Positions 32,750 through 59,894 of a stretch of DNA of 64,000 bases are shown here, piece by piece. The DNA is from Bugula neritina (taxonomy: Eukaryota; Animalia; Bryozoa): the NCBI GenBank assembly GCA_964035545.1, contig OZ037768.1, positions 12,409,675 through 12,473,674 on the forward strand, given 5' to 3'. Position 1 is the first letter of the stretch, and every line of letters starts with the position of its first letter. The notes beneath the pieces are model-generated. The model saw only the letters and a program-made list of their open reading frames with translations. It was not told the DNA's origin and searched no databases. The position numbers and the translations under genes are program-made.

Positions 32750-32784
32750 CTTACTCCCTGGCCAGGAGCATTTGTAGTAAGTGG

Positions 32785-32803
32785 AATCCCACCGCTGCCA
32801 CCA
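32785..32803 (-). promoter_or_regulatory. Primer-binding site (tRNA-Leu) of element A
   Basis: TGGTGGCAGCGGTGGGATT, 1 nt inside the 5' LTR; complementary to the ..AATCCCACCGCTGCCACCA 3' end typical of tRNA-Leu(AAG/TAG). Confidence 0.8.
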
Positions 32804-33616: not shown

Positions 33617-33617
33617 G

Positions 33618-33635
33618 TGGTGGCAGCAGTGGGAT
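33618..33635 (+). promoter_or_regulatory. Primer-binding site (tRNA-Leu) of element B
   Basis: TGGTGGCAGCAGTGGGAT immediately after the 5' LTR; one mismatch to element A's PBS. Confidence 0.8.
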
Positions 33636-33651
33636 CTTGTGTATAGCAGTC

Positions 33652-34603: not shown

Positions 34604-34616
34604 ATCACCCAGGGAG
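34552..34616 (+). promoter_or_regulatory. Putative -1 frameshift signal of element B (slippery site + hairpin/pseudoknot)
   Basis: G TTA AAC at 34552-34558; stem ACGGCCCGCAG (34563-73) / CTGCGGGCCGT (34587-97); loop UUCCC could pair with GGGAG at 34612-16. The protease ORF lies in the -1 frame. Confidence 0.75.
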
Positions 34617-35916: not shown

Positions 35917-36659
35917 TCGACATGTACCGAGCGAAACAGGAAGGGGGACGACCCAGTAGTAAACAACGGCAACAGGGATGCGCCGAATTACGGCTGTACT
36001 GTCAACGTTGGAACTCTCTGCGGGTCGGGCCAGATGGTCTGCTGACCATGACCTTGGCCGCCAACAGCAGACAGCCAGCCAGGAAGAGGGTCGTCTGCCC
36101 AGCTGCCATCCGCCGGGAGTTGATACAAGACACCCACGAGAAGACTCACGGAGGAGTCCAAGGGGTGGTCACCAAGCTACAACTCCGGTGGTACTGGCCC
36201 AACATGGAGCGGGATATCCGGCGCAGAGTGAGACGGTGCGAAGTCTGCCAGACCAACAAGCATAGCCGTCTCCCTGGTAAAGCGGGGCGGCAGACGCATT
36301 GTGCGAGGAGGTCTTGGCAAGCGGAGACTGTCGTCCTGGCCGGAAACACCTCCATGACACCTCAGGAAGACTTGGCGAGGCGAGAAAGGCCACTTCCGTC
36401 CTTGAAAGTGCGCCCACCGCCCCCAACGTCAAGCCTGCCATCACCACCACTTCCGGGACCAGAAACGGGTCCGGAAGTGCAAAAACCCCCCGTGGGAGGG
36501 GCTCCGCAAGGAGATACCAACGTAGGAACAACCGTCACAAACAGGCTGGAAAAACCACCCGTGAGACATAACAATCCACGGGTGAGCACACCGCCTCCCA
36601 CAGTGACGACGCCTCCAGGACCACACACTAGGCAACTTCCAGCGTGTCTCAGAGACTGA
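35910..36659 (+). pseudogene. Integrase HHCC zinc-binding remnant of element B (DDE core deleted)
   Basis: RVVCPAAIRRELIQDTHEKTHGGVQ..RWYWPNMERDIRRRVRRCEVCQ, then decayed SWQAETVVLAG and a Pro-rich tail. Confidence 0.8.
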
Positions 36660-36919
36660 GTACGTGACCGCGGTATAAGCGGCAGTAACGAAAGTCTAGA
36701 GAGGCCTCGCATGGGAAAACAGGCAAAGAGACGTGGAAGTTGTGAACACCACGGAAATCTCAACTTTTGCTTCGGCGGAATCTCACACGAGATTCATCCG
36801 CTGGAAGTGAAAAGCTCTAGTCACGTTTCACAACTACGCTGTCCGGTCTTTTCCTACGTTGATGCAGTCAAGAGTAGACGTGCCACTAAACAGTAATCAT
36901 TTACCGCTCTCATTCCAAA

Positions 36920-37977
36920 ATGTCTTACTATTCTGGATCGAAGGGTGAGTTAATTATGTTTTTGGTACGATAACTAGACTGCATCAGTCAGCTTTAGCTA
37001 CACTAGCTAGCGAGCTGGAGATTTGATAATGATAAACAGTGGTGGGAATACACGTCGACTTTGATTTTAAATAATCTGCCATAGCGAGTGTGTTCTCCAT
37101 CAACTATTCATTAGCCTGAATCTCACGAGTGTAACTGAACAGAGTACCGGTCAGGCTGTACACGCCGACGGTACCTCAGTGTATAATCTTTAACACTGCT
37201 ACTCTTTCAGATCACACTCGAGTGACCACCTCCCGGTCACGGGACCAGCCAACCTCTCTGCCTATGGAAGAAGAACCTGTAATGGAGAATGGCTTACCTG
37301 TGGTGCTTCGTCGACGACACCGCTGGGTGTCACCCACGACGGAAAGGAGAATTGAGGAAGCCTGGGGACCCAGTAGACCCCACCGGACCTGCCAGGTCTG
37401 CTTCGAGGAGTGCCCGTCACACCGCTCCCTGCGTCTGCATGTAGACGCCCATTTTCTACTCCACTTCTGCCCATGCGGGTTCCACGATGTATACCCGTAT
37501 CCTGTGATAGTCCATAAGCTGAGCTGCTTCGCCGGAGAGAACCATACTGTTGATGAGGACAGTTTCCCCCAATACCTGGACGCCATCAAGCCAGTCATCA
37601 AGAAGGCTATCACCCTGGCTGCACTAACGTCAGGGTTCCAAGTACTGCTGTTATCCGCCCGCCATAAGTCCCCTATGGTTCAGGGCCCGTCTCCTACCCC
37701 CGTCAACCCTAGCAACACCCCCGAATTAGAAGGAACAACAATACCCCCTCTAACAGAGACTACTACAACCCCGCCAAGGCCTAGCCAGCTGGCTAATGTA
37801 GAAGAGCGGCTTGTAAAACTACAAGCCGAGTTTACACAACTGGCCCCTGACCTGCTGGATACGACGATAGGTCTATACCAGCTGAAGGACTCAGTGGGGC
37901 GACTGAAGAGGCGGCTACGTGCCCGACAGGCTCGACACAGAGCACGCTCGCTACAAGAGTCAGAGTCCACCCAATGA
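36920..37977 (+). CDS. Predicted spliced accessory gene of element B: C2H2-type zinc fingers plus C-terminal coiled coil (263 aa)
   Basis: Exon 1 36920-36944 (aaaATG..AAG G|gtgagt), intron 36945-37210 (..ctctttcag), exon 2 37211-37977 in frame. Motifs CQVC-x12-HVDAH and CPCG..HKLSC; heptads LANVEERLVKLQAEF..LKDSVGRLKRRL. Confidence 0.7.
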
Positions 37978-38280
37978 GTATGCCTGAGGTAGGCACCTTT
38001 CGTTGAGCTATATTTCGTCTGGAAAGTGACGAGTGCTCCGATATTGGCCCGCGTGCTGGTAAGCACCCTCTCTCTTTATAGCTGACTAGATGTGTGTGTT
38101 CGATCACCCTGTTTACTTCTGTATATAAATGTTGTCGTACTCAACTATTTCTCTTCTCCCTTTTTGTGGGTTTACTTATGTATGTTTTTCTTTTTTGGAT
38201 TATTGTATTGTTTTTCTTTATGTGTTTTTTTTTATTGTGTTATCAGAAAGTAGGGCTTTCTGCTGGGGGGGGGGGGGCGG

Positions 38281-38632
38281 TGTAGTGAGTCATGCAAGTA
38301 CAAATACGGGAATCGCCCTCTCTCCATTCTGGGAATACTAAGACCCTTATGTAGCAACCAATTAGCAGCACCGAAAGATATGCTTCCGACTCACGTGACA
38401 CTTCCCGGGTTATTAACAATTGATCACGTTGTTGTAAGCGGAGGCTTGAAGTAGAAGCATGTGTTAGTAGTTGACTGATGTATAGGATAATTTGATGTGA
38501 TGTTTACTTTATGCTTTATTGTGGATAATAAATATAATTACTCGACAGCTACCCTAGTAATTGCTAGCAGAATAACCAAATAACTATACGCAAGTAGATA
38601 ACTCACGCACAGTAATTGCACAAATTACTACA
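38281..38632 (+). repeat. 3' LTR of element B
   Basis: Direct repeat of 33265-33616, followed by TSD CTAT. Confidence 0.95.
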
Positions 38633-41435: not shown

Positions 41436-42677
41436 GTAAGATTCTCTCAGGTAGCACAATTTTTATACTATCTTATTTATGTGCATGTAATATTGAATAG
41501 GTAATAGTATGCTTTACTTACCTGTTGATTCTAGGCCCATCAGTTTTAGCATCAGAAAGGTAAAGCTGGTGATTGTTGACTTTTTATATTATATATGTAT
41601 TACCTTCTATGTTAGCTTTTCAATCTTGATTGAACTGAATTTACTGTTAACTTTTGCTGGTGTATTCCCAATAACAGTGGCGGAATTGAATATCTTGGGT
41701 GCAGATCATGTGAAATTGCATGAGTATTCAGGTAGTTATAGTCGTCAATTTTTATGTTTTAAAGAAAACCTACTGTGATTTCTGTCTGTTTATAATGTGT
41801 GTGCAATTTTTTGCATTGCTAAATTAAATATTTAGTATATTCATGTTTAGTTCCATCATTTTTTGCCATAGCTATGTTAATTCCTTTGTCATGAATACTA
41901 TTGAGCTGCTGCCAATTGTATCATATTATGGGTTGTAGTACAGACGGCAGCTTCACTGAAAGAGGACCACAGGGACACAATCTCAACCCGACTTTGCAAG
42001 AATTTGTTGACTCATACTCTTTCTACTTTTTTGGTGCAAATCATGAGGTTGTATCTAAATGTTGGCTTAATTTCAGTGAAGATAATAAATGATTATATTT
42101 TTATAATTGTATCATGTGTTAAAAAATAACTTGTAATATCTTACAGTGGTTAAAGTGGAGAATATATGAGGTATTATTTTTTTTGTGGTATATATCAGAG
42201 AGTTTTTTTGTTATCACAATACAGCACCTTTATTATTTGGCAACAGAATTTATTTCATAACTCAAAGTGCTTGCATGTGATAACACCATACTCCTTATTT
42301 GCAGACAACCAATGATGATAATGATGATGATGATTTACAGCTAATCTGTTCTGATTCGTCTGATGAAAACTAAGAATTTGTTGTGTTAGCTTTCTTGTAA
42401 GAATGATTATCTTTCTAGCCATTTGCTTTAAATTCACAATTAATTCTCACTTCAAGTTTTACCCATTGTTGTTAAACTCTTGTCAACTCATCTCAATTTG
42501 CCGATTTTCTCTTTTTTGGTAACTCTTTAATAACATTCATTTACAAAACAGTTAACTCAATCAATAATTTTCATCTTTATAGCTCGTGTCTTTCTTATTC
42601 ATTTTCCACGCTTTTATATCTCATCTGACAGTATCTATCCACCAATGTTTTGACCTCCTTATTGTTCGTTAGTTTAG

Positions 42678-43958
42678 GAAGCCTGCCTTCCTCTGATGTA
42701 GAAGACAACTTCGTGTTATGTGACATCTGCACAAAGAAAGGGATAGAGAAAGTATACCAGCAGTGACCTACTGCACTGTGTGCAGTAAACTATTCTGTAG
42801 AAAATATGATGAGGTAATTCCTTTCCCATAACTCTTTTTTATTAGTTGATAACTATTTATTTTGTTGTTTCTCAGCTTTTCCATTAGTTATCACAATTAC
42901 TATACATATTCACTTTATTGTGAAATGTTTTTATCAGCAAAGAGAAGAGTATGTAGAGCCACATTTTTTGTTTGAGTTTCTTGATATTGCTATTACAATT
43001 ACAATTACATTTTTATACATCAATTACTAATTACATTCAATTACTTCAACAAATGTAATTAATTACAACCAATAGCAATTACAAAATACAAATTTCACCC
43101 CAACCCTGGAATATAGTGTGGTTAGCACTTGACTAAAATATATTAAAATAATATGTAAGCACGTGTATGTTTTCCTTCTAATTATGGATATATATATTAT
43201 ATTTAAGCTATTGCCTATAGTGAACCTGTTATAATGTAGGTAGACAGATATCTATGCTAGAAGGTGCAACTGTTAGAAGTGATAGATCATTTGATTTCCA
43301 TGTGTATAAAGACATTTATTCTACCAACTCAACAGAACAGGTATTTTGTATATAATAGGAGTTATGTCCTTCCTATGACATTTTGTAAGCTGATGCAGTC
43401 CATGCTTCAGACTTGTCCGTTATATTATATCAAGTAGGGACAATTTCAGAACTTCCCGATTCTTAAAATTCAAAGCCATAGCAAGACTATGTGGAAATGT
43501 TGGAAAAACTGTCAAAGTGATAGCATAAGCTAACACTGTTTTGACCAATAGAATTTGTCAATTCATTTGCTGTGACATCACACACAAGAAATAGTTTAGC
43601 TTTTCTCTGCTTTCATTTTTGTCTAATTCAATTTAACCTTTTTGTCAGGTATGTTTATCCTGCCAAACTCATTCCTTTTCTTTCAGTTTATTCCCCAAGC
43701 CTTGGTTTATATTACTGGTTACGATATCTCATAAGCAACTAATAATCATGATACAGTATTCTAATGTTTTGAATAATATTTATACTTTCATAATAGGAAA
43801 GTAGGCTGATGTGGAATAAAAAGAAGTTTCTGCAGCAGATGCATCTAGTTGGTTTGCTGACAAAGTGACATGTGAAAAGACAGCTGATTGGTCAGTTCTT
43901 CTGACCAAGTGACACTGGTTGGTTATGTACATTGCCATCTCATTCATACATTTGTTAT
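42678..43958 (+). repeat. Diverged duplicate of 17850-19185 including the B-box relic (frameshifted)
   Basis: CDICTKKGIEKV/PAVTYCTVCSKLFCRKYDE|gt with a 2-bp insertion (agtataccag). Downstream intron, terminal exon and UTR-like sequence are colinear with 18000-19185. Confidence 0.85.
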
Positions 43959-44293
43959 TGTAGAATTATCCAGGGCATAATTCCACAGTATCTGCATCTC
44001 AGACATGACTTATGTACCAATCCGAGATACATTACATCAAAAATAAATGTTGTCTATCGGCATAAATTTTGCAGTAGCCAATCATAGTACTATAACAGGG
44101 CAGTCTCAGTGTAGTATCTTGACTATCGGCATAATTATAATAGCCCATAATTGAAAATGAAGTTGGAAGCTTTCCAAATACCTCCCACATATAATAGCAT
44201 TCATGCTAGTCCCTAAAACTAAATAAACATTACGGTAGACCAATAATTATAAAAGCTCTACTCATTTGTAACTGGAGGATTTGTAACACTACA
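43959..44293. mobile_element. Possible solo LTR
   Basis: TGTAG..CTACA inverted ends, flanks ttat/ttac. Starts exactly where similarity to 19185 stops. Confidence 0.45.
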
Positions 44294-44716
44294 TTACTAA
44301 ATTTCTTGCATTGGAGGTGCTTAGGCTGTGTTGCCATAGTGATATGTAGTTATTGGGGCTTTGTATAAAATTAAACTTGATAATTATTAGGATCAAAGTA
44401 TTATTGCTGTAGCTTCAACTACTGAACTTTGGAGCCATTATCTCGATTCTTTGTCAGGAATGGGTGGATAATTTCATGCAATAATGAGTTTTAGCTTTAT
44501 ACTTTCATTGATAGCAACACTGAACTAAAAATTTAATATCTTTTCAAGTTCATTGGGTAGCAGATTATCTGCTAAACTTTATGCAGATATTGAATAAATA
44601 ATGTTTGATAGTTATGTTATATTGTTAGGTTCCCAAGCATATTTAAAAAGTCACAATTATTGCTTCGACCATAGGTCAAAAAATTACCAAAAGAAAGGGC
44701 AAACAACTCCAAAAGA

Positions 44717-46273
44717 TTGTTCTTACAGAAGCAAGTTAATTCAGCTAAACTGAATACTCTAACTGATCAACATTTCCATCTATTGAAATTGAAGAAAAGT
44801 CTCCGAGCACCAACTAGATTCCAACCTTCCCCTAATAGATTTCAGGGACCTCAACAACATCAAAATAGATTCCAGCAGGCACACCAATACAACCAACAAC
44901 ACAATGGAGGAGAATTTGACGTGGACGGGAGACCTGTCTGTACTGCTTGTGGTCAAAGAGGACACCATCACTACACATGCCGCAACAGACCTGAGCAGCC
45001 AAGGGAGCCCAGGGACAGAGTGGTACGGTTCATAGATGAACATAACCTCAACACAGGCAACACAGCTCTTCGCTCTGCCCAAATCAATGACATACCAACA
45101 ATCACCAGTGTTGTGAGGCCGAAGCCAACAATGATAGATGACTTTCCAGAAAGTACATGTAACTTCCTTTCTGATGTGTTTGATGACCCGGAATTCTCCA
45201 TCATGGAGTTGTTTGCTGAAAAAACTGTGTGTGTGATAAAAGCCAGTGGTGACAAGGTAATCAAATGCAGGATCAACAACCCTGATGCTAAGCTGCCTCA
45301 ACGGATGACAGAAGATGCTGCCGGATATGACCTATACAGTTCTGAGGAAAAACAAATACAGCCAGGAAGAATTATGGCAATTGACACCGGAATTTCCCTT
45401 GAACTTCCAGAAGGATGTTATGGCCGGACTACTTCAAGATCAGAACTAGCCCTCTCAAAGTCAGTCATATGTATAGGAAGAGTGATTGACAGAGACTACC
45501 GTGGGAATGTCAAGGTGATGATAATGAATGTTGGGGAAAGCAACGTCAACATACATAGACATGATAGAATAGCTCAGCTGATATGTAAAAGAAACATCAC
45601 ACCAGAAATCCAAGAAGTAACTAATCTCACTCTTACCCCAAGAGGAACCCAAGGGTTTGGATCAGCTGGAGTTGAAACACCCAGCAACCAACAATATGAA
45701 GACACCCGAGTGGTTCAGACAGTAACTTTGGAGACAGCACAAGTTGATGACATCATATACTCCATATCTGGATGGCACCAAGATACTGGAGCTGAAAAAG
45801 GAGGATATGACTATGGCAGAAGAGAAGGATACAGAAGGGATGACAATTCAAGGAGGTACCCCAACAACAGGAATACAAGGGGCAGGAGCAATCTGACCTC
45901 CTCTAGTTGGATACCAATTATCGTCAGGCTAACGATAACCATCTCCTTTTTGCTCTCAAAAGTTCAAGGCCATCCTGAGAAGCCAATGTTATGTAGCACC
46001 GCTAACAACAGAAGATTCCAACCGGCACTGATACTGAGTCTACCAAAAAGAATTGACTGCCCAAAACCCGCAAGCCCATCAAGAAAGGTAACTCCTCTGA
46101 CTGTACAGCTCTACAAACCAAAGCCTCTGGTACTACAGGAAAAGGCTTTCCTCTGCTCCAGAAGAGAAACAACAATCCAAACAAAAACTTCTACTTCTTT
46201 GGAGATGAACGACTACACAAGAAACAGGAACGGTACTTCCCGACATCATCTGCACAGTGCACAGAGAGGATAG
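44717..46273 (+). CDS. Gag C-terminus (CCHC knuckle 44939-44980) - dUTPase - Env N-terminus polyprotein fragment
   Basis: GRPVCTACGQRGHHHYTC; dUTPase motifs; hydrophobic SSWIPIIVRLTITISFLLSKVQG (45902-45970) followed by a Cys-containing ectodomain. Confidence 0.85.
   Translation: MFLQKQVNSAKLNTLTDQHFHLLKLKKSLRAPTRFQPSPNRFQGPQQHQNRFQQAHQYNQQHNGGEFDVDGRPVCTACGQRGHHHYTCRNRPEQPREPRDRVVRFIDEHNLNTGNTALRSAQINDIPTITSVVRPKPTMIDDFPESTCNFLSDVFDDPEFSIMELFAEKTVCVIKASGDKVIKCRINNPDAKLPQRMTEDAAGYDLYSSEEKQIQPGRIMAIDTGISLELPEGCYGRTTSRSELALSKSVICIGRVIDRDYRGNVKVMIMNVGESNVNIHRHDRIAQLICKRNITPEIQEVTNLTLTPRGTQGFGSAGVETPSNQQYEDTRVVQTVTLETAQVDDIIYSISGWHQDTGAEKGGYDYGRREGYRRDDNSRRYPNNRNTRGRSNLTSSSWIPIIVRLTITISFLLSKVQGHPEKPMLCSTANNRRFQPALILSLPKRIDCPKPASPSRKVTPLTVQLYKPKPLVLQEKAFLCSRRETTIQTKTSTSLEMNDYTRNRNGTSRHHLHSAQRG
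45257..45670 (+). CDS. Trimeric dUTPase domain
   Basis: All five motifs in order: AAGYDL, GRTTSRSEL, RVIDRDYRGNVKV, DRIAQL, RGTQGFGSAG. Confidence 0.92.
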
Positions 46274-47655
46274 AGAAATGGACTGTCGATGGGACTAAAC
46301 TAAAAGACATTAATGGAGTCATCTCTACCCACCATTCAGTTGAGCCAACCTACAAGTGGTGCTGCCACTGGTATGAAAGAGTAGTTGTCAACTATCAACT
46401 AACCCCAGGCTACATATACCTCCACAGAGACACTAAAAAAATGCAGACTACACTAGGATTAGCGTCACATTGCAAGTTCGAAGACTTCAATTGCTTGTTG
46501 CCAGGAAATGGTTTCCTAAGATGGAAAGAAAATATTACTGATGAGTGCCTATTTACTAAATCTATTTCAATTGAAGGAGAAAAGCGTGGACCCTACTTCC
46601 TACCCAATCAAAAGGATATGGCCTTAACATTTCTTGACAGTAAATGGCGAAGAACTCAAGTGTGCCCTAATACCAGACCAGAATTAAAGCTAATCAAAAC
46701 CGATCAAGGAATCTATATTGACAACTTAACAACTATCCAAAATGTCTGGATTACTCCACCGTGGTACATCAGTGAAACGTTGACAGGAGTCAGTATCAAC
46801 GAGTACATAGGAGGTGTGATCAACACTATAGCCTCAGCTTTGTCTCGTGACATACAAAAAACAGCAGCGGATACCTTTCGGCAAGGGATACAAGCTTTGT
46901 GTCAACATGAACAGTTAGCCTATACAACAATGTCAAAACTCTTCACATCTAATCCAACTCCTGTAATAAGGCACCTACTCAAAGAAGACTACATAGTTGC
47001 AAAGACAATTTCAGTCAATGACATAGCTATCTACAGCTGTAGCCCGTTGAACACAGATGAATACAAAATCACAAGACATGACGCACTTGAAGAAGGAACC
47101 TGCTACACATATATACCTATGGAGGTGTTCCCCGACACCAACGCTAGTCACCAACTATTCATGAACCCAACAACCAATATCATTACAAGTTCCTCACCAA
47201 TACGTTCTTGTAATCACCAGGAATACACACACTTCAGTCTGAACAACACCCTTAACAAATTCTTCCCTTTCAACAACACCATCAATAACATTACTAAAGA
47301 AGAAAGCAACATCTTGAGACAGATATTCTATCACAATGTGTCCTATGTACACAGGAAGCTCATAATCTTCAAAGAACATGTAAACCTATTTCCTATCTCC
47401 GATTTGAAGACAGGCTCAATCTTCCTGAATGACTTTGTGGAAACAATACAGCGGAAAAGACAACAGCTCTGAAGTATTGGTATCCTTACAGAATCCGGAA
47501 AAACTGATAGCAAGCTACCCTTCAAAGTTGGTGAAATGAGTTTCTTTCAATGGCTACAGTCAGGAGCACTTGAATTCATGACAATATGGAACATAGTGTG
47601 CAATATCTATGTCACAATCCTTTTCACACACAGCCTAATCAAGATATTATACTAC
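45902..47655 (+). CDS. Envelope glycoprotein, class III fusogen-like (herpes gB/chuvirus G-type); one frameshift (about 46185) and one stop (47470)
   Basis: Signal peptide; AFLCS; aromatic loops FYFFGD and YKWCCHW; SHCKFEDFNC; LCQ..SNPTPVIRHLLKEDYIVAK..IYSC; CYTYIP; FMNPTTNIITSSS..C; many N-x-S/T sequons; TM-like ALEFMTIWNIVCNIYVTILFTHSLIKIL. Confidence 0.7.
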
Positions 47656-47659
47656 TGAT

Positions 47660-49112
47660 ATGCTACAACTGAACCCTCTGAACTGAAACTAGTAGTTCCT
47701 GTGGGAATGCGCCAAAATGTCATCCAAGCCTTCCACAGTGACCTTTCAAGTAGACACAGAGGAATCAACCAGACAGTCTCGGCAATCAAAAGATACTTCT
47801 TTTGAAAGTCACTATCTCAGGATGTTGATGTCTTTATCAAGGACTGCCAGACATGCTCAATGGTAAAAAGACCGCCAAGGAGACTTGTCCCTGAGCTCAG
47901 GCGTCTCCCAATCCAAGGACCATTTTCAACATGGTACATAGATTGTCTACAAGCCCTGAAAACAACAACGCAAGGTAATAAACATGTGTTAGTTTGTGTA
48001 GAAGCTGTCACCAGATATACTGTCACTGCTGCCCTGAAAGACTTGACTGCCAAGACTGTAGCATATGCTTTGTTCTCACACCTGTTTGCTATTCACTCTT
48101 ACCCTAAAAGAATCCACACAGACAATGCTACATACTTCCACGCTGACTTTATGAAGGAGAAACTGACAGACACTAGACACACCTTCACACTCAGCTACAA
48201 CTCATCTGCCAATGGCTACGCGGAAAAGGCAATCCAAGTCATACAGAGAGCCCTACGATGTTACACTTCAACTGACCAGACCAATTGGGACTTTTATTTA
48301 CCTGCCGTCACATTTGCAAAGAATACTTCTGTCTGCCGATCAAACTCATCATTTGCTGATACACCTTTCTTCCTCTATTTCGGACGAGATCCACGAGTCC
48401 CAACACTGAATGAGCTCGGCGATGCATCCCCCTTGGATATCAACAGCACATCAACAACAACGGATACATTTGAAGAACACATGTTCATACAGCTACATGA
48501 GGCAATACAACGTTGCTACAGAATCCATGACGAACAACATAAGAGATACAAGGCATACTATGACCGGAAAGCTACCGAAATACCCTTGAAGGTTGGAGAC
48601 AGAGTGTATATCACAAAGCCGAATCTTGGCAGAAATAAAAGCCGTGCACTTACACCAGGATACGTTGGCCCACTCCAAGTGATAGACCTGACCCCTACCA
48701 CAGCTCTAGTCATACCTGTGTTAACCCCCCTAAATAATAATGGATCATGGGTTGCTATCAAAAAACTGAAGCTTGTCGGGCAGAACTACACTCCTACCTA
48801 TGCGGACCACCAGGCAGCAATGGAATTCAAAAAAAGCTCAGAAGAAAGCGATGGCATAGAAGATGATGTATATGCTGAAACTATTGATGGCAAAAGTAAT
48901 GATGTTATACCTGAACGGCAACAGAAGATCTACTATGCAACATAGACGCACCCCTGGAACCCGCAGCCTTCAATTCAGAAACTCAAGATGATATGGTAAA
49001 CCAACCACCACCAAGAACTGAAGAGTATCTCCAACAGCCAACAACATCATATAATCTCCGCAGACAACCAAAATCAAAACGCCGGAGTGATTTTGAATAT
49101 GACCAGGAATAA
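47660..49112 (+). CDS. Gypsy-type integrase (HHCC, DDE core, GPY/F-like module; tail frameshifted)
   Basis: LVVP..FHSDLSSRHRG..RYFF*..CQTC; WYID, HTDNATYF, NGYAE; YVGPLQV; SYNLRR tail in another frame ending at 49112. Main ORF 47860-48945. Confidence 0.9.
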
Positions 49113-49159
49113 CCAGCTCATTATTTATTAATGTTATGAATAACTATATTTAATCTTAC

Positions 49160-49161
<2 letters not shown>

Positions 49162-49204
<43 letters not shown>
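49162..49204. repeat. (TA)n microsatellite
   Basis: TA run. Similar runs at 50088-50162 and 50776-50851 separate the accessory ORFs. Confidence 0.9.
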
Positions 49205-49207
<3 letters not shown>

Positions 49208-49473
49208 CCCCTCGGGGACTGCCTCCTCATTCATCAATGCCAATATTATAAGTATAATCGAAATTATGGTGCTGAAGAAACTATAAAAACAGTAAATTCA
49301 GTGCTTTTAGCAACCAAAATAGTTTAACTTGTTCAGTAATTTAATAACGCTTGTGCTTCAGAACTGCCTTAAACTGTGAAACAAACAAGAAAAGGGAAGT
49401 AGTGAATAAGGTATTTTGGTAGATTCTTATACTAATTATTATATTTAAATCAAATTTCAAATTATTTTATAAG

Positions 49474-49872
49474 TTGAGTGAAATACAGTCCACTACAGCT
49501 GCGAAAAGACAGGAATCTGAGGAAAAAGGAGACAAATACTATCTAGAACTGGAAGCGCAACATGAACAAATGAAGGCCATAATTGAAAAGTTAAGGAAGG
49601 AGAATATGGAGATCAAAGACTTACTGCTAATAATTGAATATCGCCTGAACTCACTGGAGAGGAACTCAAGAAGTATAGTGCTACCAATGCAGCCAATTAG
49701 AGATGGAACTATCGTCCAACCCATCAAGAGGCATCCAAAGAATACAACAGGTGTAATCTCAGAGCAACATGATGAACCTCAACGCCCTAATGATAGAGCA
49801 GAGTCCATACAATTTGTCACACGGTGGATCACTGGGATGACTGAGTATCTAAGGATGAACTCTAGATGGTGA
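49474..49872 (+). CDS. Coiled-coil ORF/exon, probable accessory gene of element C
   Basis: 132 codons after an AG; heptads LELEAQHEQMKAIIEKLRKENMEIKDLLLIIEYRLNSLE; same A-rich strand bias as element C. Confidence 0.5.
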   Translation: MSEIQSTTAAKRQESEEKGDKYYLELEAQHEQMKAIIEKLRKENMEIKDLLLIIEYRLNSLERNSRSIVLPMQPIRDGTIVQPIKRHPKNTTGVISEQHDEPQRPNDRAESIQFVTRWITGMTEYLRMNSRW

Positions 49873-50083
49873 ACATACGGCCCACCACAAAGTGAAGCAC
49901 AACATCCTACCAAGTGTGGCAAAATTTAATTCATTTCCTAGCATTTGCGCGAGTAAGGAACCAAGAAAGAAACAATGTCTAGAAATCTACTTAACTAATT
50001 TACAACTTTCAGTGCTTACTATCCATCATCCCTGATATAACACTATTCTATCTACACATAAACATAATCAACACACAGTCACC

Positions 50084-50164
<81 letters not shown>

Positions 50165-50257
50165 CAGGAATATTATATCACCCAAATAATTGTGGTACAT
50201 AGATATTGCTTATTCATATAAATCTACATATATGTATATATATAGACTGCTACCCAA

Positions 50258-50695
50258 ATGGACAGATTGATGATTGTTGACGAATTCAATGGCAAACCTA
50301 AGTCCAGAAGTCCGATCAGTGGAAGGACAACTCCCTCGGCCGATAAATCAGATTTAGATAGCAGAATTAAAGACCTAGAGATGGGGGTACAAAAAAGGGA
50401 GACTAAGATTGATGAGCTAAGGCAACAATTAGAAGAAGAGAAGGAAAAGACCGGTAGATGGAGAGATAGAGCTTTGAAATTTAGCAGAAATGGAGATCCT
50501 ATCAAAGCTATAGAAGAGATGAAAAGGAAGTTGAGCACACAAAATGATGAAATGGAGAGTCTAAGAAGAAAATATCGGAAGCTGGAGGAGAAGCAGATGA
50601 AAGAAGAAAACAACACTATGTTGGTGAAGTGGATAATTGCTCTAAAACAAGAACTGGCAGACAACAATCGTCAGAATTACTCTCCTCTAAGTTAA
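50258..50695 (+). CDS. Coiled-coil protein (145 aa), probable accessory gene of element C
   Basis: ATG-initiated open ORF with long E/K/R heptads LDSRIKDLEMGVQKRETKIDELRQQLEEEK..IEEMKRKLSTQNDEMESLRRKYRKLEE. Confidence 0.55.
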   Translation: MDRLMIVDEFNGKPKSRSPISGRTTPSADKSDLDSRIKDLEMGVQKRETKIDELRQQLEEEKEKTGRWRDRALKFSRNGDPIKAIEEMKRKLSTQNDEMESLRRKYRKLEEKQMKEENNTMLVKWIIALKQELADNNRQNYSPLS

Positions 50696-50771
50696 CTGGT
50701 TTCACTCACCCTAAGTTGATATGGGAACATTTGATTGAGTATTTAGAATATAAACACTTAATCCTAACGAC

Positions 50772-50857
<86 letters not shown>

Positions 50858-53800
50858 GGTATATATTACATACTACCTGCTACTGCCCTTACTAATTGGT
50901 TTGGAATGATACACTCATTTATATACTTATTATTAATACTACACTTTACTTAATACATTATATGGTAGACTTTACAATTGCCCATTGTTGCTCCAGACTA
51001 AGTTGAAGCATTAAAGTTACCTATAGCCTCTTTTTCACAAATTTGACAAATTACAAGACGTAAAAATCCATAAGATCTTAATACTTGAGAAACTAATATC
51101 TGGAAGCAGAATAATAATTACTCAAATCTTAGTACTTGGAAATAACAAATACATAAATATTAAACCTATCCCTACTCGAATTACTTACAACTACTTAACC
51201 CTCCGAATCATACATAGTATAGAATGCACATGTCTTAATAATTTTGTTAAAATATCAGGTTTATTTCACAGTATCATGGGGTGTATTTGTCTATTTACGT
51301 GCTACCTGCTTCAATAAGTTCTATTGCTCAGTCAAGTAAAAGAAGTGATTCTAGAAGATTGATTCAATAGTCTTGGGACATGACGTTAAACTGCAACCAT
51401 TGTATTATTTTATTAAAAAAAATATAATTTCACAGTATCGTAATTTTCACCAGTTTACCCAAATATTTATAAAATTATTAAAAAATCTTGTTTCTGAAAG
51501 GAATTGTACATAGTGACCATTCACATGTCAAGTTTACATTTTTGCTAGAGAATAATTTATAATTATTTTTTTTAAACAACCTGGACATACAATTGTACTG
51601 CTGATACCACGCAACTTTGCAAATAGGCAGTTAAAGCTGAGCATTATTCTTTATTTTGAAGGCATGACCATGTTACACTTTAGCTAATGGTAACCATTTG
51701 ACACTAAAACCAGTACAAAAGGTGGGATTGCATACACTTTCGACACCTAATGCTTATTGGGTAAATATTTATTATGTCAATCCTTGTACACATAATCAGG
51801 CCTTTCCATAGCCTGCATGGATGTGGGATCTTACGAGATCCAATGTCAAATGTGCGCTGTAGACATCCAACAGCATCTTGCCAACCTAAGTAATATACCT
51901 TAACCTCAGTTTGCCTATCGAGTTGTTGTGTAATTAGCATCACATGTCTGGCCAATTTAATTCTTTCGAGAATCCTGGTAATAAACCATGATCATTAATT
52001 TCAGTTAACTGTATACAGTTTATTTTTGATTACAGCTGTTATGTAAAGGTTGACAGAACTGGATATACATGTAATATTCCTTTTCAATAATTCTTAAATA
52101 CTTTTGTTAGCTTTAAAATCTTAACAAAAATCAATGCGACAAAATCTTAATTAAATTCAATAACTGAGTGGAGCTATTTGTCAGGTGGATGATAATATTT
52201 AGGCAGGCCCTATTGCTGTGATGATTGACCGATTAATCCAAGTATCTGTAATTCCTATACTAATACTTATACCTAAACCCACACATAAAAGTTAGAAATC
52301 AGAGTAAAGGAATTAGCTTGACAATCATTAGTTAACTTAAATAAATTTTCAAAATTTTCTAGCTCAAAATTCAAATTTGAAATTTGTAACATTGACAATG
52401 ATTATTTTTATAATGTTGTGATTATGGGCATAGTTAAAGTCTATGACTACTAGTACTTAAGAAAAATTATTACTCAACATAATCACAATGATGGTGTAAC
52501 TGTAAGCTAAACCTAAGTCCTAAGGCTAAAGCATTGAAGATTCCTGATAGAACAACTTGCTCATTGCTGACTAGTAATACAAATTATGCTATTATTGTTA
52601 AATAGACAATAATAGTAATATGTTACAATCTAGAAACTACAAGTACAACTAATGCTATGATTCAATTTAATTTTAATTAAATTTAAATATTTCTGCCTTA
52701 CCTTGAATTTGACAGTTGATAATGATATTGTTAACAGTTATGTTTCAGTTTGACTTAAGCATAAAAGTACTACGAATAAGATCTGATAACCTGAATGATG
52801 ATGGTAATAGTTATAGCTGATGGTGCTAAAATTGAAAAATAGTTTTATCGCGGACGAAGTCTAGAGGTATACTCCCACTAAACTATGAAGTAAATGATGA
52901 TTGAGCTGACGATAGTATGGTGATTGGACTAATAAGAGAGCACCGTGGAATGCGATGCAGAAACAAGTGAGCTTAAGACACATTTGATTGGCCACTCTTT
53001 TGTCATCCTTATAAATTAAAAGGGAGAATAACTCCTTAGATATTAGGGATTCAGCTGATTTCTCATTGGATATTAACGTATATTTGTCAAATATTACTAT
53101 TTAACCACTCACTAATTTAGTTATTGGTAGCTGGTTTGTAAGATTACTGAATGATTCTGGTTTGAGTTTGAGTTATTGAATCTGAATATCAGTGTGGGTA
53201 TGAATATGGGTATCATAATTGCCACCAATCAAATTATAGTCAAGATACTTTTATTTCAGCCTGATTTAATTTCATTTTTTTGAAAAGCTTTATTTATGTT
53301 TGCAGTACTAGTTGTACTAATGGTTGATATTTTACTAGAGTATAATTCATCGGGATTTTCATCGATATAAGATTGACAATAAAGGCTGCAATAATTACAG
53401 TTTCATGAGCTCATTTGTGATTATATTTATGATTTAAGTTGTGGTGTAAGTTATTATAAGTTTCTCTTATTCTCAGTTATAGTCATAATTTATTTATAAA
53501 TTATAGCTATAGGTAGCAGTTTGAAACTGAATAGCACGAATTGTATTCCGCTAATATATATGTTTTTAAAAAAACTTATTAATATAAAAAACAAATTGAA
53601 GTATGACATTAGCAGTTCTAAGCATAGTATTAACAGTCATAAAAGATATAGCATTGTGTGTTGATTCAATTTTATACTTTGGAATGGGCATATCATAATG
53701 ATAGTCAGCCAGGCAATCGTCTTATGCTATAACTCAAATACGTTTTCTGCCGAGAACGGAATCCCCGGATCTGAATTTCTAAGAGGCGTAAGAGCTCTAG

Positions 53801-54054
53801 CTACTGGCCTCTGTGCTCAACGCCTGAAATAATATTATAATTATAGACAACGATTGTCATAGACTATTATTATTATTTGAACTTACTGATTACTAATTAA
53901 TTACTTGAGTATAGAATAATTTAGATAGCATATAACTATACAGTTACTTTGAAGCTTTTCCCTTGCCCAATTCGATTTACAGGACAAGGTTTCATTTTAC
54001 CTACCTTGGAGTTGCCCTCGTACTTTCCCTCAGACTCTTGAGGGCACTTCTTAT

Positions 54055-54480
54055 GTGAACAATTGTAAAAGTGCAATGACACAAGAAAATTTGGATTTCG
54101 GTGCAGAAAATCTGTCTAAATTGCTGATGCAAGATCACGCTTTCGAAATTATGAGAAATGGAGAATATGGCAGTCAATGGTTAATAATTGCAATAGCTCA
54201 TCTTTTAGGAATAAATATACAAATTATATACCCTGTTCAAACACCACCACGATATATGAACTGTCTTCTAAGGCTCAATGAAAATAGTGATGACAAAATC
54301 ATTCTCAGTTGGACTACTGCTGGTAGATATGTTGAAGACGAGAATAGTTTAGTTCCAGATCATTTTGTTGTGTGCACAGCAATGACCAGATCTCCGCAAC
54401 ATCCTATGCCTATAAACATACAAGAAAAAGCAGATGCTGAAGTAAAGTTCAAAAATTATGGCCAATTCACTAGAATGTAA
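54055..54480 (+). pseudogene. Vertnin/OTU-like cysteine protease domain fragment of a MULE
   Basis: NGEYGSQWLIIAIAHLLGINIQIIYP..MNCLLR..IILSWT..VPDHFVVC resembles the C-terminal half of vertnin-type OTU folds. The upstream catalytic GDGNC appears decayed (TGQG near 53980). Confidence 0.55.
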
Positions 54481-54744
54481 GTTTTGGAAGATAAATTATT
54501 TCTGTATTTAGATTGTAACTGTTAATCTTTGTAAGGTTGATTGGTTTATTATATAGCATACTACTGAAATGCCATATTGTAACATGAAACATGACACAAT
54601 TGTAATAGTAACATACCTAAAATGCATATGATTTCTAGACATACAACATAACGATATTGATATAATCAATATTGCCTGTGGTCAAAATAATTAAGAATTA
54701 TCTGAAAGTTGAAATAAAAATAAATATATTTTTATTATTTTCAG

Positions 54745-56790
54745 GTCATGTCATCAAAATGTACCAGCACTGCACACTGACACACTGATAATCACTGAAC
54801 ATGCCATAGAGCTAACCAACAGACTAATAGAAGGCACTATCACTTTCGAGCAAGTAGGGACCCAAAAAAGATTAAATGGCATTATTTGTAGCGCTATATA
54901 TGTAGTAAATGCTGATATTTACTAAATGAGAAGAGAATGGAAAACACATCATGTCAACCAGAAGAAACGGCTTTGTTTGCAAAGGTAATAAGGGGTTGAA
55001 GAAAACGGAAATAACTTTTAAGAAAAGAGATGGAAGCTGTTTGGATTTATTAATTATTCAATATAGGTTTGACAACGCATCTGAAAATAAAGTAATTGTC
55101 AAACCCCATGGAAACTTTAAAAAGTCAGTTCTTTTCTTTCCAAGTGACAGAGCATTGCTGCAAGAGCTAAAGGAAAAATCATCAGGCCTACATAGCAACG
55201 AAAACCCAGTGGCAATATACAACAATCTGCCATAAGTAAAACACTGCATACAGTAGGAACAATAGGGGCAGTGCCAAGAGATGTAAAACAAATAAAAAAT
55301 TTTAGGAACAAAAAATAAGCAGATCCAGTGGAGTCACTTTACGCATTGTATTTTGCGCAAAAGTCACATGATCAATTTATCCAACAAATTAGTTTTGATG
55401 ATGGAAATTTTACAGTTATTATATTATATACAAAAAAGCAAACCTAAGAATGCCACTTTACCTAGACACTACATTTAATCTAACGAACATGTACACGGTG
55501 ATACTTACGTTGAGAGATGAGCGATTTGCTGGATCCCCAATAACAATTGGACCAATGATGCTGACTCAGAAAATGGATAGTGGTAGCTACACTGTGTTCT
55601 TCCAACATGTCATCAGAAAGTTGCTAAAGCTACAACATAGGCAATTGGTATTTGTAACTGATGGTGAAAAAGCAATACTAAAGGCTCTTCAAATATTTCC
55701 CAAAAGACATGCATTTCGGCGTTTTTCACATGTGTACGATAACATCCAAAGAAAGCTAACTAAATTATGCATACCAGCTAGCATAAAAAAGGTTTTTTTA
55801 TACGACATTAGTCAAAAATTGAGTGGTCAGACGGAGAGTAAAATGAAAGAAGAGAGAAAAAACACCACTGAAAACTGGCAGAATATTAGTCGAAACAAAT
55901 GCTACCAAGGTGTTTGCAAATTTATACACTATTTCGACGAATAAATCTGGAATTCCCTTATCGTAAATTCCAACAAAAAAATTCAAGGATATAATTTCAC
56001 ACCATCAACTTTTGTTACAACAAATGCCTCTGAGTCGTGTAATGCAATGATCAAAAGATGTGTTCAAGGAAAAAAATTAACAGTGTCTAACCTTTGTATC
56101 AGCCTAAAAAAAATGGTTGATAGAATGTCTGAGGAAATCAAAAAAGGAATATCTGGAATATCGAAAAAATTTATCTAATTGGATACTTGAAAAGGCATAA
56201 AATTAGATCCAATTAGAGCAATTAATAATAAAAAGGATATAGAAATTTCGCACTTAAATGAAGTGATGAATTTGCTAATGAGTAAAGCTAGTAATGCAAA
56301 AGTTGTACAAGTTAGGAACAGTGAAGATCATGTTTCAAAACTTGACAATTCACCACAATATGAAACTATAAAATCAAGGCACAACTCTCAACGATGCTGC
56401 ACCTGTGAAACCTACAAAAATTTGATGACCTACGCACATGTAGTGGCTGGTGCACAGCATGTTGGAGAAGGAAATTATTCCTCTATTAACTTGACACCCA
56501 AATCAAAGCTAAAAAACATTCTCGACAAATATGGAGGAAGAAAAAGAAATGAAAAGCCAAGGAAGAGGCGTGGAACACAAAGAGATAGCAATTAGTCCGA
56601 AGAGGGTATTTTCCGAAGCTAATCTGAAAATGTATATAGTAGTATAACCGTAAAAAATATTAGCAAAGTGCAAGGATCTAGTGAAAATTCAGCTCTCACA
56701 ACTGCGAACAAATTAAACTCTACTAATTTAGAATTCCTAGTAATTAGAAAAAGTAGGCGCATAACAAACTGCTTTGGCTGTTAACGAGAT
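54745..56790 (+). pseudogene. Mutator/MULE DDE transposase with SWIM finger, degenerate
   Basis: PHGNFKK, PRDVKQIKNFR, LYLDTTFNL, GPMML, FVTDGEKAI, FSHVYDN, TTNASESCNAMIK, CCTC..YAHVVA; multiple frameshifts and stops; TIRs not found. Confidence 0.8.
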
Positions 56791-57712
56791 TTTAATTTAT
56801 TTGACAGTTTTGTTATTAAACAAAAACACAACTTTTTTCATTTTGACAAAATGTGCATTATAAAATCAAAAATCTGTAGATGTATTTTTTTCAACACCGT
56901 GGTAGCAGATTGGCCGGCAGAGTGGATTGGATCGTAGCAATGTAAAGTCATGTATAAATCACTCTCTGTTATGTAATAGTGTACGTTAGTTTTAATATCT
57001 TTTATTTGCTGTATAATTTGTAATAAATAAATTATATTCTATTCGTGAAAAACCTGGTGAAGTGGCTTTGAATAAGTAGACCCACTAATTGTTGTGAATC
57101 ATACATTCACAACAATATTACGTCTTTGTATAAGCATTACCATTTAATGGACAGTAGGAAGGTTGTTCACAGCTACAATGTGTGTCGTTTAGTTTAGTAG
57201 TGGTAGTAGAGATGTGTGCAGTCTTAACTTTGTGCTGGTTCGAGCCATCAATACCTAACATTTTTCATGTTGGGCATGCATGAATAATTAATTTTTGTGG
57301 TCTTCCTCTTGAAAAATTTACTTAGTCGGTTGGATGGTGGAAAGCATTTGTTAATGATTTGAAGAAATGTTTTCCTATATTTTGGTTTTTACTGTTGAAC
57401 TAAAAAGTGGGTTGTACCACAATATTTTTCTATTTTTATTATTTTTTTTTTGATTTAGGTGTTGGATTACTTTTTAATTTATAGTCATATCCACTGTTTG
57501 ATGGTGCTTCTTGCTATGGTTGTATGGTGGTTTTAAACTCCTCCTCATTGGAGGATAGTAGGCTAAGCCTTGGGCCACACTGTGCGTATTTTCGCGTGCG
57601 AGTTCGCATGAGAAGAAATACGCAGCGGTAGCGACATGCCACACACGACGTTACGCAGGAAAATGCGAAAATTAACTAGCCAATTGCTTTTGCTTTCAAC
57701 GTTACTGCTCGC

Positions 57713-59894
57713 ATGCTCTCCTTGTTTCTATGGCTACACATGCTGATGCTGCCTTGCAAAATGACAATCGATTCGAGCAGATTGCTTTTATTTAAAAAAA
57801 GATCATTATTTCTAAAAAAGAAAGTATTGCTTGCTGAAAAAGTTAAACAAAAATACTGGGTTCATCCAATTAATATAAAGAGGGATAAACTTGGGCTTCA
57901 CAGTACGCTTGTTGATGAGCTTCGACACCAAAATGCCGAGTCCAGACATAAAAACTATTTTAGAATGTCTGCATATAAATTTGACTTTTTATTAAGATTG
58001 ATTGCGCCAAGTCTTACTAAGCAAAACACAAATATGCGTCAAGCAATTGAACCCTCCTTAAAGCTAGCCACCACATTGCACCATCTTGCTGAAGGTAGTA
58101 GTCACAGAAATATAGCCACTCACTACCGGCTTGGAAGATCAACTGTAGCTGGTATAATTTATACTACATGTGACGCTATTTATGATGCCTTGCAGCCATC
58201 CTTTTTAGCAGTACCAACCGGGAAAGAAGAGTGGAAAAAAATAGCCCAGGGGTTTGTGCTTATTAGTACTATATGCTACTGTATTAGAATTGATAACTTG
58301 ATTTGTACAAATTCTTGAATAAATTACTATACTGTGAAATTCATTTACAATATTTCCTTCAACTTTGTTTTAAGATTTGAAGAAAGATGGAATTTTTCTC
58401 AACTGTATTGGTGCTGTTGATGGAAAGCACTGTACAATACAGAAACCAAAGAACACGGGCTCAACTTATTATAATTATAAACAGAGACTATCCACTATTC
58501 TATTAGCTGTATGCAGCAGCAATTACGATTTTTTAATGATTGATGTTGGTGCGAGTGGAAGCAACAATGACGCTGGAGTTTGGGCGCAATCAAAATTTTC
58601 CCAAGGATTAGAGAATGGTAAAAAATAGCTCTGCTTACCAGTATTTAACTTTTTAACATCTAATAAATGTATTATATTTTGACTAGCAATTATATGCTTA
58701 TTATCACCATTTTCTTTAGGCACTATCGACTTACCAGAACCATCAGTATTATCTGATTCTTCAACCCTATTCCCTTATACCCTTGTTGGGGATGAAGCTT
58801 TTCCTCTCAAGTCATATTTGATGAGACCTTATCCAGGTCGTAGTATCAGCAATGAAAGCCAAAGAATATTCAATTATAGACTTAGCAGGGCAAGAAGAGT
58901 CATTGAAAATACGTTTGGTAAGTTTGGTAAGTCTAGTGTTTGAGTGGCATAGCTGGTTGGCAAACTGTCACAAATTCTGAGTGTACATATATCTATAGAC
59001 TTACCGGGTTTTTCCTGATGATTATACACGAATGTTCATGAATATTCTAGACTGATCAAAGAGATGGGTCATTGTTCATTGTTATTGTTTTCATTAGTCA
59101 TGTTAACTACTGCCCAGCAATGTAAACAAGGTGTTGCGCAATAATTGCGAAATAACCATGGAAATTCCAATGTTTTGTTTTGTTTTGATTTTCTATAAAT
59201 AGTATTGGCATGTGGGGAATGTTTTCTACTAGAATCTTCTGTACTGGAATGCTTGAGAATATTCTAGAGCTTCTTGTTCACTATAAATACTGAGGCAGTT
59301 GTGTTTACAGTTCAGTTCATTCTCGGAGTTCATTTTTATAAATCCATCTGTGCATATCTTACTATAGAGAAATAAAGTCTACTTATACAACTCTATTTAC
59401 TCTCAACTGGGTTAGCAAGCTGTATGCTACTTGTCTCTATACTTCTGACTACCAAACTTTTCGAACTCGTCACACTGCTACCAACAGTTTTGTGACACAA
59501 ACTATTTCTTTGCATGCATCAGTTGCAATCTTTATAACTTTGCATGTATTCTATTTAGGGATACTAACTCAGCGCTGGAGAATACTGTTTAGGCCTATCA
59601 TTGCTGATGCTTCAAAAGCAACAAAATTAGTGAGAACTGCATGTGTTTTGCACAACTTTCTAAGAAAAGTTGATGATGAAATTTATTGCCCACCTGGGAT
59701 ATGCTGACCAAGTGAGTCATGATGGGAGTATCAAATTAGGATTTTGGCGTGCAGCACGACAACCGACTTTTGGATTGTATCTTCGAAATAGAGGTGCCAC
59801 AGTAGCAGCTAGCGAACTCAGAGACAAGGTGACTTTATATTTTTGTAACGAAGGAAAAGTAGCTTGGCAAGATAATCATATTAACAAAAGGTAA
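57713..59894 (+). pseudogene. HARBI1-like DDE nuclease, 4 exons (..58251, 58375-58617, 58720-58917, 59559-59894), two 1-bp frameshifts
   Basis: WVHP, YFRMS, MRQAIEP..LATTLHHLAEG, NCIGAVDGKH, DVGASGSNNDAG, GDEAFPL..LMRPYPG, FNYRLSRARRVIENTFG, CVLHNFL. Frameshifts in the T run (about 58395) and the G run (about 59697). Confidence 0.9.
58966..59497 (+). mobile_element. Solo LTR in Harbinger intron 3
   Basis: TGTCACAAA...TTTGTGACA ends, perfect 5-bp TSD CAAAC, TATAAATA at about 59282 and AATAAA at about 59371. Confidence 0.9.

What the first reader, a model, noticed from the sequence alone, without database searches (positions are those of the whole stretch)
44800..49112. Retroelement with Gag - dUTPase - Env - integrase order in essentially one reading frame
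Seen: the CCHC knuckle, a complete dUTPase and the Env signal peptide are in one ORF. After a single 1-bp slip in an A run (about 46185), the ectodomain, TM segment and integrase all share one frame, broken only by three TGA codons explicable as CGA/TGG mutations (47470, 47656, 47803). Established: retroviruses and errantiviruses place env after pol as a separate ORF. Here Env lies upstream of pol-derived sequence inside a polyprotein, which implies signal-peptidase release and return of downstream domains to the cytosol after the TM, as in RNA-virus polyproteins. PR, RT and RNase H are missing, probably through an in-frame deletion at ..LIKILYY... This is the best candidate in the window for an undescribed enveloped endogenous virus lineage.
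Basis: partly seen in the sequence, partly recalled or inferred. Interest (0 to 1): 0.85.

Follow-up and report, generated by a model that had tools for sequence, protein, structure and literature searches.

The report
Deleted bryozoan Gag-Env-Pol errantivirus with dUTPase
This is a broken copy of a virus-like jumping gene, likely from a bryozoan (moss animal), whose herpes-gB-like envelope gene lies ahead of the integrase in a layout already published; this copy has lost about 2.6 kb that likely held its copying enzymes, and only the dUTPase placed between Gag and Env appears unreported.

Summary
The window holds a Gag zinc knuckle, a whole dUTPase, a gB-like (class III) Env and a Ty3/gypsy integrase in that order. 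A sibling contig has 2,641 other bases between the Env membrane segment and the integrase, so this copy lost a net 879 codons, the size of PR-RT-RH in relatives. Env-before-Pol is the family's true order: of 150 Env relatives, 14 also carry RT or integrase, and all 14 have Env first. The closest named proteins are from Bugula neritina (91% and 88%). GAG-ENV-POL errantiviruses with HSV/gB-type Env are published for Bryozoa, Nematoda and Platyhelminthes (PMC13524379), and in-frame env between gag and pol for planarian Burro (PMC6431247). Two published bryozoan Envs are close (about 49% by hand count to Cpal_errantivirus_7). What remains new is minor: a dUTPase between nucleocapsid and the Env signal, shared by sibling copies and absent from 28 of 28 relatives spanning Gag to Env. 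This scan noted the same layout before in other genomes.

The parts
44801..44980 (+). 3' remnant of gag ending in one CCHC zinc knuckle (44939-44980); capsid part and start codon absent
   Evidence: (zf-CCHC_3 E 0.047, weak); element begins at 44801 where high-copy repeat contigs leave the window
45287..45670 (+). dUTPase, all five motifs recognisable, some conserved glycines changed in this copy
   Evidence: PF00692 E 5.1e-32; 23 solved dUTPase sequences at E<=1e-20, best 2okb_A 1.6e-32; present in sibling contigs
45899..45955 (+). internal signal-like hydrophobic stretch ahead of Env
   Evidence: Kyte-Doolittle 19-residue mean 1.54, weak; aligns with the same stretch of P0100, 38% over 106 aa; no SignalP run
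45956..47568 (+). class III (HSV gB / mononegavirus G-like) Env ectodomain, with a frameshift at about 46184-46191 and a stop at 47470
   Evidence: PF24664 E 3.9e-8; model pLDDT 76, pTM 0.47; Foldseek: herpesvirus gB in PDB, best E 4.1e-6, TM 0.30; mononega/chu-like glycoproteins and gB in BFVD, best E 1.1e-11
47569..47625 (+). Env membrane-spanning segment
   Evidence: hydropathy 1.57; 44% identity to P0110 over 97 aa up to and into it
47657..47662 (+). deletion joint: a sibling has 2,641 other bases in place of 4; net loss 2,637 bases = 879 codons; the stop at 47656 is formed here
   Evidence: X13 record 2, 6,007 nt, joins 47241-47657 to 47662-48146; X4, X8, X14 contigs also break at 47662, X4 and X14 at 47657; arithmetic
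47662..48945 (+). Ty3/gypsy integrase: HHCC zinc finger, D-D-E core, GPY/F-like motif; stop at 47803
   Evidence: 18 relatives found, 17 with RT, RNase H and integrase domains on record
48915..49112 (+). overlapping 65-codon frame, probably the integrase tail beyond a further frameshift
   Evidence: role inferred
49423..49872 (+). short coiled-coil-like ORF in the element's 3' region, function not found
   Evidence: tied to the element by overlapping sibling contigs
50246..50695 (+). second short coiled-coil ORF in the 3' region, function not found
   Evidence: sibling joints 47295->50600 and 48871->50616 link it to env and integrase

Best explanation
This is a 5'-truncated, internally deleted and now non-coding copy of a Ty3/gypsy element of the GAG-ENV-POL errantivirus type, likely bryozoan, whose intact form likely read Gag-dUTPase-Env-PR-RT-RNase H-integrase as one membrane-crossing polyprotein. 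Shown: the domain order in the window, the 2,637-base net loss between Env and integrase, and Env-before-Pol in single-ORF relatives. Inferred: that the lost stretch is PR-RT-RH and was one open frame. Inferred working of the intact form: Gag and dUTPase are made in the cytosol; the internal signal threads Env into the ER and is cut by signal peptidase; the Env membrane segment stops transfer, so Pol returns to the cytosol, tethered until the element's protease frees it. The gB-like trimer would fuse particles with neighbouring or germline cells. A dUTPase on the Gag side would be packaged at Gag stoichiometry and keep uracil out of the new DNA in cells with little host dUTPase. This copy can do none of this: no start, no capsid, no RT, a frameshift and three stops.
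For: Sibling contig bridging Env to integrase with 2,641 other bases; 879 codons exactly; membrane segment to zinc finger 902 codons in the sibling versus 787-1,236 in six single-ORF relatives where that stretch holds RT and RNase H, with a protease detected in five. 14 of 150 Env relatives carry RT or integrase, all 14 with Env first; 4 run Gag to integrase in one protein. Bugula neritina proteins 91% and 88% identical. Published bryozoan errantiviruses all have HSV/gB Env and GAG-ENV-POL order; Env domain I-II about 49% identical (88 of 181, counted by hand) to Cpal_errantivirus_7 against a bryozoan median of 28.1%. gB-like fold. dUTPase tied to the Env start in a sibling 87% alike (X1 record 2, 45635-46067) and present in 82-92% alike contigs of three other runs.
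Against: The 2,641 bases were not read, so PR-RT-RH and an unbroken Env-Pol frame are inferred from length. The bridge rests on one contig of one run, although three other runs break at the same base on the integrase side. No LTR or primer site was found. The integrase tree did not place this integrase (long branch, quick tree) and did not group it with the sampled Env-Pol polyproteins. Hydrophobic stretches are weak (1.54, 1.57). Model TM-scores to gB are only about 0.3. No test of cleavage, fusion or dUTPase activity exists here. P0001, the best full-length Env relative, runs 230 residues past its membrane segment with no Pfam hit.
Confidence: 0.88

Rival explanations
1. Same family and order, but Pol is a separate frame reached by frameshift, read-through or splicing after Env, so only Gag-dUTPase-Env is the main polyprotein and Pol is made in smaller amounts.
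For: The eLife paper speaks of ORFs and allowed gaps up to 2,000 nt between ENV and POL. 14 of 150 relatives end as Gag-Env without a protease match, and P0001 ends 230 residues after its membrane segment.
Against: The net loss is an exact multiple of three, which a single frameshift would not give; four relatives run Gag to integrase in one protein. Many short relatives come from short contigs.
Confidence: 0.12
2. The locus is a chimera: a gag-dUTPase-env piece of one element joined by chance to the integrase of another with the usual gag-pol-env order.
For: The joint has 4 bases found on neither side of the sibling; the integrase does not group with sampled Env-Pol integrases.
Against: One sibling contig holds both sides in the same order and strand, at 91% and 95% identity; none of 14 relatives has Env after RT or integrase; sibling joints tie env, integrase and the 3' ORFs into one unit.
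Confidence: 0.03
3. The element is an undescribed lineage of its own, apart from the published GAG-ENV-POL errantiviruses, defined by dUTPase, extra length and 3' accessory ORFs.
For: Integrase at most 29% identical to any protein held; dUTPase in 0 of 150 Env relatives; 'dUTPase' has 0 hits in the eLife main text and 'dUT' 0 in its seven supplementary files.
Against: Its Env is about twice as close to two already listed bryozoan errantiviruses as these are to the other bryozoan ones, and the paper placed both by RT and integrase in a clade with nematode GAG-ENV-POL elements.
Confidence: 0.07

Closest known systems
Bryozoan GAG-ENV-POL errantiviruses with HSV/gB-type Env, above all Bsto_errantivirus_2 (Bugulina stolonifera) and Cpal_errantivirus_7 (Cryptosula pallasiana); Chary and Hayashi, eLife, PMC13524379 (authors' names)
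   Same: Env before Pol; gB-type Env between a signal and a membrane segment; Env domain I-II aligns to Cpal_errantivirus_7 without gaps at about 49% (hand count); Ty3/gypsy integrase; no LTR found there either.
   Different: The paper names no dUTPase; Bugula neritina was not among the rows found by 'Bugul'; this copy is deleted and dead. Whether those two elements hold a dUTPase is untested: their listed regions are about 3 kb longer (17.7-17.8 kb against 14.4-14.9 kb for the other eight).
Burro/GYPSM1 giant gypsy elements of planarians (Arkhipova and Yushenova 2019, PMC6431247; passages read; authors recalled)
   Same: env in frame between gag and pol in one polyprotein, with hits to mononegavirus glycoproteins; a dUTPase-like domain in the same polyprotein; accessory ORFs.
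   Different: Burro's dUTPase lies between PR and RT, here between the knuckle and the Env signal; Burro carries BIR, BCL2, MATH, ankyrin and SUMO-like domains not seen in what is left here.
Non-canonical nematode endogenous retroviruses (Sacco et al. 2022, J Gen Virol 103:1739; not held, seen only as cited in PMC13524379)
   Same: env and pol flipped in a metavirus with a captured RNA-virus glycoprotein; P0109 from Caenorhabditis tropicalis shows Gag-Env-PR-RT-RH-IN in one protein.
   Different: Other host phylum; distant Env; no dUTPase in P0109.
dUTPase-bearing LTR retrotransposons of bdelloid rotifers (Juno, Vesta, TelKA; PMC5408684) and fungi (PMC2864245); passages read
   Same: Ty3/gypsy elements with a captured dUTPase; in Postia its place varies between families.
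   Different: Rotifer dUTPase lies between PR and RT and the rotifer env is a paramyxovirus-like ORF3; neither paper's passages describe a dUTPase between Gag and Env.

Membership tests
GAG-ENV-POL HSV/gB-type errantivirus (Ty3/gypsy) | Env lies between Gag and Pol | tested here: met
   window order and sibling bridge Env to integrase
GAG-ENV-POL HSV/gB-type errantivirus (Ty3/gypsy) | Env of the HSV gB / class III type, flanked by signal and membrane segment | tested here: met
   hydrophobic stretches weak, TM-scores about 0.3
GAG-ENV-POL HSV/gB-type errantivirus (Ty3/gypsy) | Ty3/gypsy integrase last in Pol (HHCC, DDE, GPY/F-like) | tested here: met
GAG-ENV-POL HSV/gB-type errantivirus (Ty3/gypsy) | RT and RNase H that classify with Ty3/gypsy | not testable with these tools
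   deleted in this copy; the sibling's 2,641 bases could not be fetched; length fits
GAG-ENV-POL HSV/gB-type errantivirus (Ty3/gypsy) | Capsid-type Gag | tested here: inconclusive
   only the knuckle is left; element cut at 44801
GAG-ENV-POL HSV/gB-type errantivirus (Ty3/gypsy) | LTR pair and primer-binding site | tested here: inconclusive
   no repeat pair around the element, but the 5' end is missing, so a pair cannot be seen
Bryozoan C2b Env group of PMC13524379 | Env sequence and cysteine pattern of domains I-II | tested here: met
   compared by eye with the ten rows of the supplement: the seven cysteines of this stretch line up with those of Cpal_errantivirus_7; disulfide pairing itself not checked
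Burro-like giant elements | dUTPase between PR and RT and apoptosis/ubiquitin-related extra domains | tested here: inconclusive
   the dUTPase seen lies between Gag and Env; the parts that would hold the other domains are missing
Retroviridae or insect errantiviruses | env as a separate ORF after pol, class I fusogen | tested here: not met
   Env precedes integrase and is gB-like

The most novel reading that the evidence does not exclude
A long bryozoan sub-lineage of GAG-ENV-POL errantiviruses (this family with Bsto_errantivirus_2 and Cpal_errantivirus_7) has put a dUTPase on the Gag side of the Env signal, so that it is packaged at capsid stoichiometry, and carries 3' coiled-coil accessory genes: a complex, cell-to-cell infectious retroelement of colonial animals, built to copy itself in resting cells of other zooids.
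Probability: 0.25. Interest if true: 0.5.

Novelty: new variant of a known kind. Interest (0 to 1): 0.27.

Why it matters
The layout is known, so this locus opens no new class. It adds a Bugula-type family to the bryozoan GAG-ENV-POL elements and one trait not found in the papers searched: a dUTPase between nucleocapsid and Env. [quoted passage not shown] How a polyprotein with Env in the middle is cut and how it balances Gag, Env and Pol was not addressed in the passages read; a deleted copy cannot test it.

Tried and rejected
No whole genome is held for this window. Word-based protein searches with the Env ectodomain found nothing at near or longer lengths; the full HMMER search found 180, of which the best 150 were listed and used. 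Scans for related DNA: metagenome contigs gave 1 weak 20-residue match (L001, not pursued), viral contigs none; scans with alignments could not run for want of a conserved stretch. No RNA holder is on record; contigs cannot show expression. The integrase tree (26 rows, quick method, careful search unfinished) left the window's row on a long branch: no placement. Atlas look-alikes for the two 3' ORFs were below the recognition mark and uninformative. Troyka (PMC12440569; abstract, introduction and start of methods read) was considered and dropped: nothing read there concerns Env before Pol, and termini cannot be tested. Sacco et al. 2022 is not held. Literature absence of a Gag-dUTPase-Env layout rests; most subscription papers, Repbase entries and the eLife figures were not visible, and supplement cells over 400 characters are cut. 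Rejected: point-mutation origin of the stop at 47656; chimera of two elements; 44675-44800 as gag (it belongs to a high-copy repeat).
Full report
Observation. The window has an ORF at 44675-46273 and a second frame at 46057-48945 with TGA stops at 47470, 47656 and 47803. Pfam finds a weak zinc knuckle and a whole dUTPase (E 5.1e-32) in the first, and a Monjiviricetes-type fusion glycoprotein (E 3.9e-8), an integrase zinc finger and an integrase core in the second. The knuckle reads CX2CX4HX4C at 44939-44980; the integrase has its HHCC, D-D-E and a GPY/F-like motif (motif names from established knowledge). Hydropathy gives one weak peak in each frame, 45899-45955 and 47569-47625. The Env start in the first ORF aligns with P0100 (38% over 106 aa), which fixes the frameshift in the A run at about 46184-46191. 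No protease, RT or RNase H is found. Contigs of run X1, which holds 95% of the sampled words and may be the window's own sample, match 46100-47619 and 47713-48226 without a difference, so the frameshift and the stops at 47470 and 47803 are not base-calling slips of the assembly.

Limits of the element. In three runs, contigs of a high-copy repeat leave the window at 44800/44801: the element starts there, cut inside gag, with no capsid and no start codon (first ATG at 45131). At the other end, joints in sibling contigs (46067 to 51359, 47295 to 50600, 48871 to 50616, 49970 to 50237) and overlapping pieces show that it runs past 51359 and includes two short coiled-coil-like ORFs at 49423-49872 and 50246-50695, for which neither Pfam nor the Atlas gave a usable name. 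No LTR pair flanks it; with the 5' end gone none is expected.

The Env-integrase joint. Laying four runs on 47150-48150 settled the main question. Record 2 of run X13, 6,007 bases, matches 47241-47657 (37 differences) and 47662-48146 (23 differences) on one strand, with 2,641 other bases in place of the window's 4. Contigs of X4, X8 and X14 also begin to match at 47662 with unlike sequence before it, and X4 and X14 contigs stop matching at 47657. The net loss is 2,637 bases, 879 codons. From membrane segment to zinc finger the sibling spans 902 codons; six single-ORF relatives span 787-1,236 residues there, holding RT and RNase H in all six and a detected protease in five. The stop at 47656 is a product of the joint. 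Siblings in X4 and X13 have no stop at 47470; for 47803 the listed rows say nothing (68 rows not shown). I could not read the 2,641 bases, and no listed X1 piece crosses the joint.

Relatives. Word-based searches missed the Env, but HMMER over 1.84 billion representatives found 180 relatives, 150 listed. Of 30 chosen for length or rank and scanned with Pfam, P0042, P0093, P0102 and P0109 hold Gag, Env, RT, RNase H and integrase in one protein. A local scan of all 150 found 14 with RT or integrase, all 14 with Env first, and 28 that span Gag to Env; none of the 150 matched the dUTPase. The two closest pieces (91% and 88%) are neighbouring Bugula neritina proteins, KAF6019076.1 and KAF6019077.1; P0109 is from Caenorhabditis tropicalis. 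The host is therefore probably Bugula or a near relative (inference). A model of 46186-47469 (pLDDT 76, pTM 0.47) matches herpesvirus gB throughout the listed PDB rows (best E 4.1e-6, TM about 0.3) and mononegavirus, chuvirus-like and herpes glycoproteins in BFVD (best E 1.1e-11): a class III fusogen. It has 11 cysteines, 7 N-glycosylation sequons and no furin-type site in this stretch. The integrase's relatives are Ty3/gypsy Pol proteins at 24-29%; a quick tree left it unplaced.

The dUTPase. It matches trimeric dUTPases well (best 2okb_A, E 1.6e-32), with changes at conserved glycines that fit decay of this copy. It is a family trait, not a one-off: contigs of X4, X8 and X14 match it at 82-92%, one X8 contig runs from 45164 to 45813, and an 87% alike X1 contig runs from its last motif through the signal into Env. 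P0100 and P0006, close Env relatives with 155-250 residues ahead of the signal or Env start, show no dUTPase there, so it is not universal even in this Env subgroup.

How it worked. Shown: order, deletion, single-protein relatives. Inferred: one polyprotein in which Gag and dUTPase stay in the cytosol, an internal signal sends Env into the ER and is cut by signal peptidase, the membrane segment stops transfer, and PR-RT-RH-IN fold in the cytosol and are freed by the protease. Relatives show the same pair of hydrophobic stretches around Env. Equal amounts of Gag, Env and Pol would follow unless splicing or recoding intervenes. The dUTPase would ride with Gag into particles and protect reverse transcription from uracil. 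None of this was tested, and this copy is dead.

What is known. PMC13524379 (passages, parts 1 of sections 5 and 6, and look-ups in all seven supplementary files; figures not visible) states that errantiviruses of Nematoda, Bryozoa and Platyhelminthes carry only HSV/gB-type Env in GAG-ENV-POL order, following Sacco et al. 2022. It lists ten bryozoan elements. Two, Bsto_errantivirus_2 and Cpal_errantivirus_7, have Env rows plainly close to this one; by hand count 88 of 181 positions match Cpal_errantivirus_7, against a bryozoan median of 28.1%. Both sit in RT clade R with nematode elements, lack a found LTR, and are listed with regions about 3 kb longer than the other eight. [quoted passage not shown] 'dUTPase' has no hit in the eLife text or supplements, and searches (listings only, apart from the papers named) showed no Gag-dUTPase-Env layout; subscription papers and Repbase were not visible. 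Three notes of this scan report the same layout in other genomes; none matched this sequence.

Verdict. Real feature, known kind. A deleted, truncated member of the bryozoan GAG-ENV-POL errantiviruses (confidence 0.88), with a dUTPase in a place I did not find reported. New variant of a known kind; interest 0.27.

Noticed in passing
window 13-10524 and 20806-30371: A tandem duplication of about 10 kb at a spacing of about 20.8 kb, 91-95% identical; real duplication or two haplotypes assembled in a row.
   Followed up: no
window 33265-38632: A GC-rich LTR element with LTRs 98% identical (33265-33616, 38281-38632) holding gag knuckle, protease and integrase zinc finger but no RT match in the ORFs scanned: a young, probably non-autonomous gypsy copy. 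A related gag-like ORF lies on the minus strand at 32009-32848.
   Followed up: partly
window 53953-55944: A weak OTU-like protease ORF (E 0.028) next to a MULE transposase fragment (E 4.1e-6): probably a decayed Mutator-type element with a protease passenger.
   Followed up: no
window 57680-58318: ORF that reads like the start of a Harbinger-type transposase (recalled resemblance); no Pfam hit at 0.01.
   Followed up: no
window 42669-43967 and 17843-19192: Two 83% identical copies of a high-copy repeat; more high-depth repeats fill 44005-44800 up to the cut 5' end of the element.
   Followed up: no
proteins P0042, P0096, P0116, P0128, P0016, P0049: Several Env-first polyproteins carry two protease-like domains after Env, and P0016 and P0049 carry protease domains before Env, which may bear on how these polyproteins are cut on the cytosolic side.
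   Followed up: no
run X14, record 10 (window 46028-47295 joined to 50600): A different internally deleted family copy, lacking the Env end and integrase, has the highest contig depth (about 430) over env in a run guessed to be RNA; the same loose end is in DNA run X13. Deleted derivatives seem common in this family.
   Followed up: no
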